Positions 9,001 to 12,000 of a stretch of DNA of 64,000 nucleotides are shown piece by piece. Numbering within the stretch: position 1 is the stretch's first letter; the number at the start of each line of letters is the position of its first letter. Location of the stretch: NCBI RefSeq assembly GCF_057098645.1, contig NZ_CM169472.1. One strand, written 5' to 3'. Position numbers: made by a program.

Positions 9001-12000
9001 GAAGGGCTGTCCCCGCGTGATGGTGGTGATGAGTTCAGCCAGGCATGGAAACAGGAAGTAAAAATCAGCGAGGGAGAAAAACCGGAATGAACATAGGGCG
9101 ACTGCGTGACAGGGTAACGATTCAGACCCTGAAACAGACCAGGGATATAACCGGCGAAATACTCGAAACGTGGGAGGACGGTCACACACTCTGGGCAAGC
9201 GTGAACATGATCAGCAGCAAGGAGGCCATTTCATCGGGTGCAGAGCTGGCGATTGGTACCGTAAGGATCTGGATACGGTACCGGAAGGACATCAACGCCA
9301 CCAGCCGGATAAAGGTCAGTACGGGGCCGCTGGCGGGGCGTGTACTGAATATCATCGGGCAGCCGCTGCCGGATGCCGCCAGGACACGCCTTGAAATTCT
9401 TTGTCGTGAGGGCGCGGAAAAATGACAGAAGAACTTATCACCCTGGAAGAAGTGAAACTCCATTGCCGCATCGATGGCGACGAGGAAGACCAGTTAATCA
9501 GCGGATACATTGCCGCATCGCTTGAGGCGTGCCAGATACATATAGGCAGGCGCTTTGATGACGGGCTGGAGTTCACGCCAGCCATAAAGATTGGCTGCAT
9601 GATGTTTATCGCTCACCTGTACGAGAATCGCCAGCTGGTAGCGGATAACGCAAAAACGCGCGTACCCATGACGATTGGCGCGCTCTGGACGGCTTACCGT
9701 GATGTGGGGGTGTACTGATGCCGTGGCAACCATTAAGACGATGCACAGAACCAGGCTGTAACAGGCGCGTGAAGTCCGGCAAGTGTGAGGAGCACAGGCG
9801 GGCGGCATGGCGTGCAGAGGATGCCAGACGAGGACACCGCCGCGCGCGTGGGTACTCCAGACAGTGGGACAAATACCGCGCCATGTATCTGAGTAAAAAC
9901 CCGTTATGCGTGCGATGCCTTGAGAAGGGGATATATACGCCCGCCGTGGTGGTGGATCACATTATCCCGATTAATGGCGGTGATGATGTTCTCTTCTGGC
10001 CCGAATGGAACCATCAACCATTGTGCCAGGCGTGTCATAACCAGAAAACGAAATGGCTTGATCCGGCAACAAAAAGCAAGCGTGCCGCAGGTGGATTTCA
10101 TGAAGAGGAAGAACGGGCCGCTAACCGCAATAACTGGATGTATGACGCTGATGAATGAGCGGGAACAAAACCGCCTTATCCGTGGACTTATAAGGCAGCG
10201 TGACGCATGGAAGACACAGGAAACAGGGCATAAAGATAAAGCGTCAGGACGCGCAGAACGCATCACAGCGAAGCGATTAACCGACCGTGACCGCGAGGTT
10301 ATGGAATGTTTCCGCAATCGCTGATGAGGCTGTATGACGGGGTGGGGGGCGTTTTCAGGACAAACCCGACCCCGCCGGGCACCGAACGCCTCCTCAAATT
10401 TTTATGCACGGGAATTTTTTGAAAAATAATCTGACGAAAAATAAGCATGGCAAGACCACCGAAAGCCCCCGCCTACCTGGATGATATCGCCGTGAAGCAG
10501 TGGCGGGAAAAATCGCGGCAGCTTGCGGAACGGGGAGACCTGACCCCCGCCGACTGGAGCAATCTGGAACTGTATTGCGTCAACTACTCCATTTACCGGA
10601 AAGCCGTTGCAGACCTTGCGGCGCGCGGGTTCAGCATTGTTAACAGTCAGGGCGGCGAGAGCAGAAACCCCGCATTAAGCGCAAAATCCGACGCTGAAAG
10701 AGTGATGATAAAAATGGCCTCCTTGCTCGGTTTTGACCCGATAAGCCGCCGTAAAAATCCACCGGAAACAGAAGAAGAGGACGAGCTTGACCGCCTGGAA
10801 TAAGTACGCAGAAGACGTAAAAACGGGCAAAATTCCGGCCTGTAAACGGTTAAAACAGGCTGTTAAACGGTACTTTTCGGACCTTAAAAGCCCCCTTTAC
10901 ACGTTCGATCGTGAGGTTGTGGAGCGGTTTATTGCCTTTTCCAGGGTGTGCCCGCACGTAAAAGGACCGATGCGTGGCAGACCCATTGAGCTGGAGCCGT
11001 GGCAGCAGTTCGCCTTTGCGTGCATCCTCGGCTTTAAGGTTAAGGCCACCGGACGGCGCAAATACACGAGCGCCTTTATCGAAGTGCCGCGCAAAAATGC
11101 GAAATCCACGACCGCCGCGATTCTGGCTAACTGGTTTCTGATTATGGAGAACGGTCAGCAGGATATCTACACCGCAGCGGTGAGCCGTGACCAGGCGCGG
11201 ATCGTGTTTGATGATGCGCGTCAGATGTGCCTTTTATCCCGACCGTTACGCAGGCGGGTGAATATTCAGGCGCATAAGGTGATACACCCGAAAAGCAACA
11301 GCCTGTTAAAGCCGCTGGCAGCAAAAGCGGCAACCATCGAGGGGACAAACCCCAGTCTTTCCATCGTGGACGAATACCACCTACACCCCGATAACGGCGT
11401 TTATTCCGCGCTTGAGCTGGGGATGGGCGCACGTCCCGAAGGGCTGTTATTTGCCATTACCACATCGGGCAGTAACGTCGTTTCAGCCTGTAAACAGCAC
11501 TATGATTATTGCTGCCAGATCCTGGACGGCGAAGAGGTCAACGATTCAATTTTTGTACTGATTTACGAACTGGACGACGAAAACGAGGTTGATGATCCGG
11601 CGATGTGGATAAAGGCGAACCCTAATATTGATGTTTCCGTGGATCGTGAAAAACTGGCCTCAACCATCCAGAAAGCGCGGGGTATTCCGTCGCAGTGGGT
11701 GGAGATGATGACAAAGCGATTTAATATCTGGTGTCAGGGGACTACCCCGTGGATGGGTAATGGTGCATGGGCTGAGTGTGCCGGAACGTTCACGGAGGAA
11801 GATTTACACGGTCAGGAGTGTTACGCGGGGCTGGACTTATCATCAACCAGCGATATTTCCAGCGTATGCTATGCCTTTCCGGTCGGTAAAACCATTATGC
11901 TGGTTTCCCGTCATTATCTGCCGGAGTTCCAGCTACAGAACCCCGCCAATAAAAACCGCGCTGTCTATCGTCAGTGGGCTAAAGCAGGCTGGATACGCAC

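What the first reader, a model, noticed from the sequence alone, without database searches (positions are those of the whole stretch)
10325..10446. Candidate cos site between HNH and terS
A GC-rich tract followed by an AT-rich tract lies in the HNH-terS gap, where HK97-like cos phages place cos. An HNH gene beside the terminase is typical of cos-type packaging. The island may therefore package unit-length genomes with defined cohesive ends.
Basis: inference. Interest (0 to 1): 0.45.

Follow-up and report, generated by a model that had tools for sequence, protein, structure and literature searches.

The report
HK97-type cos site of a cf-PICI
The gap upstream of the small terminase gene is very probably the DNA-cutting and packaging (cos) site of a capsid-forming phage satellite of E. 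coli, built like the cos sites of phages HK97 and phiE125; this is an expected part of a known kind of element, here placed to the nucleotide.

Summary
Window 10338-10396 is 71% G+C and 10397-10446 is 26% G+C, the sharpest composition step in the 64-kb window.

The gap lies in a capsid-forming phage-inducible chromosomal island (cf-PICI) with the order int, alpA, repA, ssb, perC, capsid, protease, portal, connectors, HNH, small ORF, gap, terS, terL. The island has no tail genes and is about 14 kb.

About 95 nt of the gap (10338-10430) are conserved across Enterobacterales, Pasteurellaceae, Aeromonas and Gilliamella, more strongly than the flanking genes.

Two linear assemblies of relatives have both ends inside this gap. 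One is the virion-DNA assembly LR881103 of the Klebsiella DSM 30104 island. The other is a 15.5-kb IMG/VR contig that lacks exactly 10 nt there.

Those 10 nt align with the experimentally known 10-nt 3' overhangs of phiE125 and HK97. TerL and HNH are HK97-like. TerS belongs to the unrelated P27 family.

Predicted for the window: nicks at 10382/10383 (bottom strand) and 10392/10393 (top strand), 3' overhang CGAACGCCTC, candidate TerS site 10404-10430.

This is a new member of a known kind, of modest interest. Direct end-mapping of this island's packaged DNA is still missing.

The parts
9718..10158 (+). HNH endonuclease gene, HK97 gp74-like. Predicted co-factor of cos cleavage.
   Evidence: Pfam HNH, E = 1.7e-8. 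PHROG 144, E = 1e-44. 39% identity to HK97 gp74, E = 3e-19.
10142..10324 (+). 60-aa ORF of unknown function between HNH and the gap.
   Evidence: Annotated as hypothetical protein WP_000174068 in RefSeq. PHROG 3173, E = 7.5e-37, unknown function.
10338..10352 (.). Conserved G-run block CGGGGTGGGGGGCGT, at -55 to -41 from the predicted top-strand cut. It is also present upstream of the ends of HK97, phiE125 and ST64B. Its role is unknown. A termination or nuclease-positioning subsite is an inference.
   Evidence: Column conservation is 0.8-0.9 in most columns over 68 representatives that are <90% identical. G-runs are seen in HK97, phiE125 and ST64B.
10353..10366 (.). Conserved block TTTTCAGGACAAAC(C), with GACAAA nearly invariant.
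10367..10376 (.). Variable C-rich spacer. In the window it is an imperfect inverted copy of the G-run (10338-10347 against 10365-10374, 9 of 10 complementary).
   Evidence: repeat I6. Conservation is only 0.3-0.5. The hairpin is no more stable than shuffled sequence and has no covariation support.
10377..10382 (.). GGGCAC, the last duplex bases of the predicted right end. The bottom-strand nick is predicted between 10382 and 10383.
   Evidence: The IMG/VR contig 3300022664_000095 ends in ...AAGGCAC. HK97 and phiE125 have ...GAC before the overhang.
10383..10392 (.). Predicted 10-nt 3' cohesive end, CGAACGCCTC (family consensus CGCCCGCCCC).
   Evidence: These are exactly the 10 nt absent from the linear IMG/VR contig. 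They align with the phiE125 overhang CGCCCGCTTC and with the last 10 nt of HK97, CGCCGCCAAA.
10393..10403 (.). CTCAAATTTTT, the first bases of the predicted left end. The top-strand nick is predicted between 10392 and 10393.
   Evidence: The IMG/VR contig starts CTCAAATTTTTACGCACGG. HK97 starts GTTTGAATTT and phiE125 starts GTCGAATTTT. Conservation is at least 0.9 at 10397-10403.
10404..10430 (.). Candidate TerS-binding site (cosB analogue), ATGCACGGGAATTTTTTGAAAAATAAT, at +12 to +38. It contains a T-tract at the same distance from the cut as the A-tract in the HK97 TerS site.
   Evidence: Nearly invariant across the family. The minimal HK97 TerS site is +15 to +29, CTAACCCGATTTTTT (PMC11331095; sequence). 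Binding was not tested here.
10447..10803 (+). terS, P27 family (Pfam Terminase_4).
   Evidence: PF05119, E = 1.3e-23. PHROG 83. No similarity to HK97 gp1.
10787..12448 (+). terL, HK97-like.
   Evidence: TerL_ATPase and TerL_nuclease domains. The only PDB match is HK97 TerL 6Z6D, E = 4e-42. 27% identity over 506 aa.
13373..13395 (.). attR copy of the 23-nt att repeat CGGTGTAGTCACTGGTGTAGTCA, the right boundary of the island. attL lies about 0.76 kb upstream of the window start.
   Evidence: The direct repeat flanks the related island in strain MBT-5, 14,357 bp apart, and splits tqsA.

Best explanation
The gap is the cos site of the island's own HK97-type packaging machine.

Proposed sequence of events:
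- A helper phage induces the island, which excises and replicates.
- The island's P27-family TerS binds the conserved AT-rich box just downstream of the cut, about 10404-10430.
- TerS positions the HK97-like TerL, which acts with the gp74-like HNH endonuclease.
- Staggered nicks are made between 10392/10393 on the top strand and 10382/10383 on the bottom strand. This leaves 10-nt 3' overhangs (top strand CGAACGCCTC).
- Packaging runs rightwards from 10393 through terS, terL, the att junction, int, the replication genes and the capsid genes to HNH.
- Packaging stops at the next cos. A unit-length genome of about 14 kb ends up in the island-made small capsid.

What is shown:
- gene context;
- conservation of the element;
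- homology to mapped cos sites;
- physical ends at the homologous site in two relatives.

What is inferred:
- the exact nick positions in this island;
- the TerS site;
- the roles of the G-run and GACAAA blocks, which may be a cosQ-like termination signal or a nuclease-positioning subsite.
For: (1) Context. The island has int, alpA, AAA_25/RepA, SSB, PerC, capsid, S78 protease, portal, head completion protein, connector, HNH, terS and terL, and no tail genes.

(2) Packaging proteins. The only PDB match of TerL is HK97 TerL (E = 4e-42). HNH is 39% identical to HK97 gp74.

(3) Conservation. The 95-nt element is conserved in most of the 80 loci fetched from species of four orders. In 68 representatives that are <90% identical, most columns of its three blocks are conserved at about 0.9, against 0.3-0.7 for most columns of the flanking coding DNA.

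(4) Virion-DNA assembly. LR881103 was made from virion DNA of the K. pneumoniae DSM 30104 island with a Nextera XT library. It is linear, starts 22 nt before terS and ends after the G-run. Relative to the chromosome it lacks 69 nt that contain the predicted cut.

(5) IMG/VR contig. Contig 3300022664_000095 (15,518 nt) is linear and permuted in the same way. It ends ...AAGGCAC and starts CTCAAATTTTTACGC. Close intact relatives have exactly 10 nt in between. That is what end-polishing does to a 3' overhang.

(6) Homology to mapped ends. The record ends of phiE125 (published 10-base 3' extension 5'-CGCCCGCTTC-3', PMC2920897) and of HK97 (10-nt 3' overhang, PMC9410871 and PMC11331095) align to those same 10 nt. 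nhmmer scores against the family profile, at an assumed 50-Mb search space: phiE125 25.4 bits, E = 3.8e-4; ST64B 17.6 bits; HK97 11.5 bits, not significant alone but colinear.

(7) Literature. EcCIEDL933 DNA is packaged at island size in small capsids (bioRxiv 10.1101/2022.09.08.507074). Packaged KpCIDSM30104 DNA concatemerises through cohesive cos ends (bioRxiv 10.1101/2025.02.11.637232).
Against: - No packaged DNA of this island was examined, so the nick positions are transferred from relatives.
- Only one contig gives single-nucleotide resolution, and I could not establish what kind of sample it came from.
- The window's overhang differs from the family consensus at 3 of 10 positions.
- The HK97 match is not significant on its own.
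- HK97 TerS is unrelated to this TerS, so transferring the TerS-site position is an analogy only.
- Scans of bulk metagenomes and of the E. coli subtype in IMG/VR gave no further contigs ending at the site.
Confidence: 0.85

Rival explanations
1. The gap is only an expression signal for terS-terL (promoter, ribosome-binding region or terminator), and its composition reflects that.
For: Every intergenic gap upstream of a gene must carry translation signals. Relatives have an AGGAA box 8-12 nt before the ATG. AT-rich DNA is common upstream of genes.
Against: No sigma-70-like promoter or terminator-like site lies on the + strand in the gap. The conserved part (10338-10430) ends before the ribosome-binding region, which is the variable part. 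The element is shared with the genome ends of HK97 and phiE125. Linear assemblies end in it.
Confidence: 0.04
2. The gap is a pac site for headful packaging, so packaged DNA would be circularly permuted with only a loosely defined first cut.
For: pac sites also lie in or near terS. Some PICIs and SaPIs package by the headful mechanism (introduction of the preprint).
Against: TerL groups with the cos phage HK97. A terminase-associated HNH is the hallmark of this cos class. Permuted DNA would assemble as a circle, not as linear contigs that lack 10 or 69 nt at one fixed place. Published gels show concatemers attributed to cohesive ends.
Confidence: 0.03
3. The gap is a structured RNA or DNA hairpin (attenuator, processing site or cruciform) formed by the G-run and the C-rich spacer.
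For: The window has a 10-nt inverted repeat that is 90% complementary, 10338-10347 against 10365-10374. Many relatives have a C-rich spacer.
Against: The folding energy is no better than that of shuffled sequence: z = +0.36 as DNA and -0.99 as RNA. RNAalifold finds no covarying helix in 66 sequences. There is no Rfam match at E <= 1.
Confidence: 0.03
4. The site is a cos, but it is cut by the helper phage's terminase, as in P4 or cos-SaPIs, rather than by the island's own enzymes.
For: The cut-proximal core (GGxAC, then a C-rich 10-mer, then xTCAAATTTTTA) is nearly the same in phage-type sites such as ST64B and a second site in L078. A helper enzyme might therefore nick it.
Against: The island encodes its own HNH, TerS and TerL next to the site. 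The +12 to +38 box is specific to the cf-PICI family and conserved alongside its TerS. The published work reports island-encoded, mutually exclusive packaging (abstract and discussion).
Confidence: 0.05

Closest known systems
cos site of coliphage HK97 (10-nt 3' overhang, TerL gp2 + HNH gp74 + TerS gp1)
   Same: - Position between the HNH gene and terS.
- HK97-like TerL (27% identity, E = 2e-47) and a gp74-like HNH (39% identity).
- Colinear site layout: a G-run about 45-55 nt upstream, ...GAC, a C-rich 10-mer, then xTxxAATTT and ACGC at +12 to +15.
- A T-tract starting at +23 in the window and +24 in HK97, that is, 1 nt apart.
   Different: TerS belongs to another family (P27/Terminase_4, PHROG 83, against HK97 gp1, PHROG 5601) with no detectable similarity. 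The DNA match is weak by score alone (11.5 bits). The host element is a 14-kb satellite without tail genes, not a 40-kb phage.
cos site of Burkholderia phages phiE125 / phi644-2 / phi1026b (10-base 3' extension 5'-CGCCCGCTTC-3')
   Same: P27-family TerS as the first gene. The site matches the cf-PICI profile over 77 positions (25.4 bits). The published overhang aligns with the 10 nt missing from the linear cf-PICI contig, and ACGCCCGCGAAATT aligns with ACGCACGGTGATTT.
   Different: It is a 53-kb phage of another bacterial class. In the record the gene before the right end is annotated as a holin, not HNH. The spacer and T-tract differ.
Capsid-forming PICIs EcCIEDL933 and KpCIDSM30104
   Same: Same gene order and content, and the same size class. 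The Klebsiella island's TerS is 84% identical. Its gap carries the same element.
   Different: The texts I could read state that these islands use cos/HNH packaging and have cohesive ends. They do not give the position or sequence of the site. The window's island has a RepA-type helicase of 466 aa, where strain AR_0013 has a 582-aa primase. It sits in tqsA.
Lambda cos (cosQ-cosN-cosB, 12-nt 5' overhang)
   Same: The general logic is shared: a nicking site with the TerS-binding site on the terS side, and upstream sequence that could serve termination.
   Different: The overhang polarity and length differ (3', 10 nt). An HNH is required. There are no R-site repeats, and the terminase proteins are unrelated.

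Membership tests
HK97-type (HNH-assisted, 3'-overhang) cos site | Lies at the junction between an HNH endonuclease gene and terS-terL. | tested here: met
   HNH 9718-10158, small ORF, gap, terS 10447, terL 10787.
HK97-type (HNH-assisted, 3'-overhang) cos site | TerL and HNH are homologous to HK97 gp2 and gp74. | tested here: met
   6Z6D, E = 4e-42. BLASTP E = 2e-47. gp74, E = 3e-19.
HK97-type (HNH-assisted, 3'-overhang) cos site | DNA sequence is related to experimentally mapped cos ends. | tested here: met
   The profile of 68 cf-PICI sites hits the joined ends of phiE125 (E = 3.8e-4 at 50 Mb), ST64B (E = 0.099) and HK97 (colinear, not significant alone). The junction falls at the same columns in all of them.
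HK97-type (HNH-assisted, 3'-overhang) cos site | Packaged DNA has fixed ends with a 10-nt 3' overhang at this site. | not testable with these tools
   No packaged DNA or reads of this island were available. By proxy, LR881103 (virion DNA) ends in the homologous gap with 69 nt missing, and an IMG/VR contig lacks exactly the 10 nt.
HK97-type (HNH-assisted, 3'-overhang) cos site | TerS binds a specific site a few turns downstream of the cut. | not testable with these tools
   A nearly invariant box lies at +12 to +38 (10404-10430), at the position of the HK97 TerS site (+15 to +29). Binding was not assayed, and the TerS families differ.
Capsid-forming PICI (cf-PICI) | int, alpA and a replication module, plus capsid, protease, portal, connectors and HNH-terS-terL, with no tail or lysis genes, at 10-18 kb. 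| tested here: met
   Pfam hits for all modules. att repeats lie 14.36 kb apart in the related MBT-5 island, and attR is at window 13373-13395. The criteria are those given.
Capsid-forming PICI (cf-PICI) | Induced by a helper phage and transferred using only helper tails. | not testable with these tools
   Needs an experiment. Published for EcCIEDL933.
Lambda-type cos | 12-nt 5' overhang, R-site repeats, gpNu1/gpA terminase. | tested here: not met
   The terminase proteins belong to other families. The 10 nt are missing from the contig rather than duplicated at its ends, which points to a 3' overhang.
Rfam RNA families / intrinsic terminator / sigma-70 promoter | Match to a curated RNA model, or to terminator or promoter consensus, on the coding strand. 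| tested here: not met
   No Rfam match at E <= 1. No + strand site in the gap.

The most novel reading that the evidence does not exclude
HK97-type cos sites may be modular. One part is a cut-proximal core: the G-run, GACAAA-like block, GGxAC, the C-rich 10-mer and xTCAAATTT. This core is shared by phages and satellites whatever their TerS family, so it would be read by the conserved TerL-HNH pair. The other part is a TerS-specific box at +12 to +38.

On this reading, the mutually exclusive packaging of cf-PICIs and their HNH-type helper phages would rest on that downstream box alone. Swapping 25 bp should redirect packaging between satellite and helper. The G-run block would be a so far undescribed termination or nuclease-positioning subsite common to the whole class.
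Probability: 0.3. Interest if true: 0.5.

Novelty: new member of a known kind. Interest (0 to 1): 0.3.

Why it matters
cf-PICIs spread between species and genera, and they depend on exclusive packaging of their own DNA.

A nucleotide-level prediction of their cos site gives three things:
- a direct handle for testing how the satellite's terminase tells its DNA from the helper's;
- a basis for building cos-plasmid reporters;
- a way to recognise packaged cf-PICI genomes in viromes. One such genome, LR881103, was published as a filamentous phage.

It also shows that the cut-proximal core of HK97-class cos sites is conserved far more widely than the TerS proteins. That is a testable clue to which protein reads which part of the site. 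For this window as such, the result is the expected part of a known element.

Tried and rejected
- The metagenome-contig scan for the left-end box gave 35 hits. None starts at the predicted end; one starts 25 nt upstream, which I take as a random contig end.
- The IMG/VR scan for the E. coli subtype of the box gave 36 hits, all internal and in integrated form.
- A hairpin between the G-run and the C-rich spacer was rejected. It is not more stable than shuffled sequence and shows no covariation.
- The Rfam scan gave nothing.
- The promoter and terminator scan found nothing on the + strand in the gap.
- Homology between this TerS and HK97 gp1, or any solved structure, was not found.
- I suspected that the GenBank fragment OR845787 (host E. 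coli ATCC 43895) was the island of that host strain. It is not: its best matches are 97% in 18 other genomes.
- The literature search for a published cf-PICI cos position found none in the texts held.
- An IHF site (WATCAANNNNTTR) at 10392-10404 has 2 mismatches by my own reading of the window sequence, and fits perfectly only in the Pasteurella elements. I did not pursue it.
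Full report
**The observation**

The gap 10325-10446 is non-coding. It consists of a 59-nt stretch at 71% G+C (10338-10396) followed by a 50-nt stretch at 26% G+C (10397-10446). 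A step this large occurs nowhere else in the 64-kb window: 4 of about 63,900 positions reach it, all at this site. The left boundary is not HNH itself. It is a 60-aa ORF of unknown function (10142-10324, PHROG 3173) that overlaps the end of HNH.

**Context**

Window 1 to about 13.4 kb is a capsid-forming phage-inducible chromosomal island. Its genes, in order:
- the 3' part of an integrase gene;
- alpA (880-1068);
- an AAA_25/RepA helicase gene (3276-4676);
- ssb and perC;
- the major capsid gene (about 6108-7265);
- an S78 prohead protease gene (7305-7877);
- the portal gene (7879-9090);
- a head completion gene and a head-tail connector gene;
- HNH (9718-10158);
- P27-family terS (10447-10803);
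- terL (10787-12448).

There are no tail or lysis genes. This is the organisation described for cf-PICIs such as EcCIEDL933 (bioRxiv 10.1101/2022.09.08.507074).

In strain MBT-5 a 96%-identical island sits in tqsA. It is flanked by a 23-nt direct repeat whose copies lie 14,357 bp apart. The attR copy is at window 13373-13395. The 1.15-kb query around the gap (9700-10850) matches in 532 of 5,426 complete E. coli genomes.

**The gap holds a conserved non-coding element**

I fetched 80 loci that encode relatives of this TerS (64-85% identity), one genome per species. They come from Klebsiella, Citrobacter, Pectobacterium, Erwinia, Serratia, Xenorhabdus, Photorhabdus, Proteus, Hafnia, Yersinia, Aeromonas, Gilliamella and Pasteurellaceae. 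Most carry the same layout upstream of terS:
- GGGGTGGGGG;
- a short A/T run followed by GACAAA;
- a variable spacer of 11-17 nt;
- GG(A/C)ACCGCCCGCCCCCTCAAATTTTTACGCACGGYRATTTTTTTGAAAATAAA.

The Pasteurella elements Pmp7 and Pmp8 (TerS 61% identical) carry it too.

I reduced the set to 68 representatives that are <90% identical. In these, most columns at 10340-10352, 10357-10366 and 10378-10430 are conserved at about 0.9. The spacer is at 0.3-0.5, and most columns of the neighbouring coding DNA are at 0.3-0.7. A profile of the element finds one copy in the window, E = 1.4e-21.

**Physical ends in relatives**

*LR881103, "vB_KppS-Ant".*
- This is a 16,548-bp linear assembly of particle DNA released from K. 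pneumoniae DSM 30104, made with a Nextera XT library (PMC8006926).
- Its gene order is terS, terL..., int..., capsid, portal, HNH, small ORF. That is the integrated island opened in the HNH-terS gap.
- Against the chromosome of the same strain (ATCC 13883, L087), the record stops after GGGGTGGGGGAGGTTTTCAGGAC and restarts 22 nt before terS. The 69 nt in between are missing.
- Tagmentation libraries under-sample molecule ends (established knowledge). A fixed physical end inside those 69 nt explains the break. A circular or permuted template does not.

*IMG/VR contig 3300022664_000095.*
- This contig is 15,518 nt, with its complete ends held as L187 plus L293, and it is permuted in the same way.
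- It ends ...CAAAACCCAAGCCGCAAGGCAC and begins CTCAAATTTTTACGCACGG.
- Close intact relatives have exactly 10 nt in between, C(A/G)CC(C/T)GCCCC.
- Loss of a short stretch from both ends is what end-polishing does to 3' overhangs. 5' overhangs would be filled in and duplicated (established knowledge).

**Homology to mapped cos sites**

The table shows the end of each record, the 10 nt at issue, and the start of the record.

| Source | Right end | 10 nt | Left end |
|---|---|---|---|
| HK97 | ...GGCAGGGGGGGGGATCAAATCTTCAAAACCTTTGCCCCAAATGAC | CGCCGCCAAA | GTTTGAATTTAACGCTAACCCGATTTTTTTAG... |
| phiE125 | ...GGGGAGGGGGGAGAAAAAGTCTGGAAGGTGCTGCCTTCGGGAC | CGCCCGCTTC | GTCGAATTTTCACGCCCGCGAAATT... 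|
| Window | GGGGTGGGGGGCGTTTTCAGGACAAACCCGACCCCGCCGGGCAC | CGAACGCCTC | CTCAAATTTTTATGCACGGGAATTTTTTG... |

- HK97 has 10-nt 3' overhangs (PMC9410871 Fig. 1 legend; PMC11331095).
- phiE125 and phi644-2 have ten-base 3' extensions, with the right one 5'-CGCCCGCTTC-3' (PMC2920897).
- The circular ST64B record holds the same core upstream of its P27-family terS.
- The cf-PICI profile aligns all three phages colinearly. Their genome junctions fall on the same columns as the 10 nt missing from the IMG/VR contig.
- Scores at an assumed 50-Mb search space: phiE125 25.4 bits, E = 3.8e-4; ST64B 17.6 bits; HK97 11.5 bits, which is not significant alone.

**The proteins**

- TerL matches only HK97 TerL among solved structures (6Z6D, E = 4e-42). 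It is 27% identical to it over 506 residues.
- HNH is 39% identical to HK97 gp74. gp74 stimulates cos cleavage by TerL in vitro (PMC9410871).
- TerS is Pfam Terminase_4 / PHROG 83. It shows no similarity to HK97 gp1 (PHROG 5601) or to any solved structure.
- P27-family terS is the first gene in phage records deposited from their physical ends or likely to be. It starts at 46 in phiE125, and the tblastn matches start between about 90 and 190 nt from the record start in the others (Gordonia phages, Sfi21, AbIPP1, PhiS63).

**Mechanism proposed**

By position, the window's cut is predicted between 10392 and 10393 on the top strand and between 10382 and 10383 on the bottom strand. This gives the 3' overhang CGAACGCCTC.

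In HK97 the minimal TerS site is +15 to +29 (CTAACCCGATTTTTT), which includes an A-tract. The window has ATGC at +12 to +15, where HK97 and the family consensus have ACGC, and a T-tract that starts at +23 (+24 in HK97).

I therefore assign 10404-10430 as the candidate TerS site. This is an inference, because the TerS families differ. The phiE125-type box ACGCCCGCGAAATT, which serves a homologous P27-family TerS, does resemble ACGCACGGTGATTT.

Packaging would then run rightwards from 10393 and end at the next cos. This gives the map seen in LR881103. The roles of the G-run and GACAAA blocks are unknown. A cosQ-like termination signal or a nuclease-positioning role is a guess.

**Rivals**

- An expression signal only: there is no + strand promoter or terminator in the gap, and the conserved part stops before the ribosome-binding region.
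- A headful pac site: this is contradicted by the TerL type and by the linear, non-closing assemblies.
- A structured RNA or DNA hairpin: z-scores are +0.36 and -0.99, there is no covarying helix, and there is no Rfam match.
- A cos cut by the helper's enzymes: this is possible for the shared core, but the island carries its own complete set next to a family-specific box. The published work reports island-encoded, exclusive packaging.

**Comparison, novelty and limits**

The site works like, and by sequence belongs with, the HK97/phiE125 class of HNH-assisted 3'-overhang cos sites, and it sits in a known kind of satellite. The papers I could read say that cf-PICIs package by cos with HNH, TerS and TerL and have cohesive ends. 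They do not give the site.

I therefore rate it a new member of a known kind and of modest interest. The useful additions are the nucleotide-level prediction and the observation that the cut-proximal core is shared across unrelated TerS families.

Limits:
- no DNA from this island's particles was examined;
- single-nucleotide resolution rests on one contig plus homology;
- the window's overhang differs from the family consensus at 3 of 10 positions.

Noticed in passing
L002 (LR881103.1, whole record) and L087:2370-2500: GenBank 'Escherichia phage vB_KppS-Ant' was described in its paper as a filamentous ssDNA prophage. It is in fact the packaged, cos-opened genome of the K. pneumoniae DSM 30104 cf-PICI (int, primase, capsid, portal, HNH, terS, terL). 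It is >99% identical to the host chromosome.
   Followed up: partly
L084:1440-1520 (PQ569648.1, about 90.6 kb): The 106.5-kb 'Klebsiella phage P12620-1' record contains a cf-PICI terS-terL segment. Its 5' junction is abrupt: unrelated sequence runs straight into codon 2 of terS, with no cos element. It looks like a chimeric assembly of a large phage and a cf-PICI.
   Followed up: no
L078:6268-6351: About 1.3 kb downstream of a cf-PICI terL, an E. coli contig carries a second cos core of the phiE125/ST64B type (GGGAC, then CGCCCGCCTC, then GTCAAATTTTTACACCCGCGAAATT). It could belong to a neighbouring prophage or to another satellite. Its cut-proximal core is close to that of the window.
   Followed up: no
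window 10421-10431 and homologous positions in L141, L143, L146, L157, L162-L164, L297, L312: Right after the T-tract, most family members read GAAAATAAA. A subset reads CA(A/C)AGCAGTAA instead. Most of that subset lies among the more divergent TerS sequences (64-71% identical to the window's). This hints that TerS contacts extend to about +30 to +40.
   Followed up: partly
L150-L153, L155, L148, L165, L102 (about 150 nt upstream of terS): Some Pasteurellaceae and Xenorhabdus relatives lack the canonical element directly upstream of terS. Others (L182, L273, L165) have 50-70 nt inserts with short palindromes between the box and terS. One Pasteurellaceae genome ('Macca') carries at least seven terS copies.
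   Followed up: no
L124 (about 150-110 nt upstream of terS): In Xenorhabdus hominickii the G-run block is expanded into four tandem GGGGTA units.
   Followed up: no
window 10383-10392: The predicted overhang of this E. coli subtype (CGAACGCCTC) differs from the family consensus (CGCCCGCCCC) at three positions. One of them is about 90% conserved elsewhere. Cohesive ends of different cf-PICI subtypes would therefore not anneal to each other.
   Followed up: no
window 13373-13395 and 13442-13606: The island is inserted in tqsA (AI-2 transporter gene), which it splits. The 23-nt att repeat is itself an internal tandem of GGTGTAGTCA. In strain AR_0013 an island with a 100%-identical stretch from HNH to the start of terL (9700-10850) sits next to phoQ instead, so the packaging module travels between islands with different integration sites.
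   Followed up: partly
PMC9410871, discussion: The discussion of that paper gives lambda 10-nt 5' and HK97 12-nt 3' overhangs. This appears to be swapped relative to its own Fig. 1 legend and to PMC11331095, which give a 10-nt 3' overhang for HK97.
   Followed up: no
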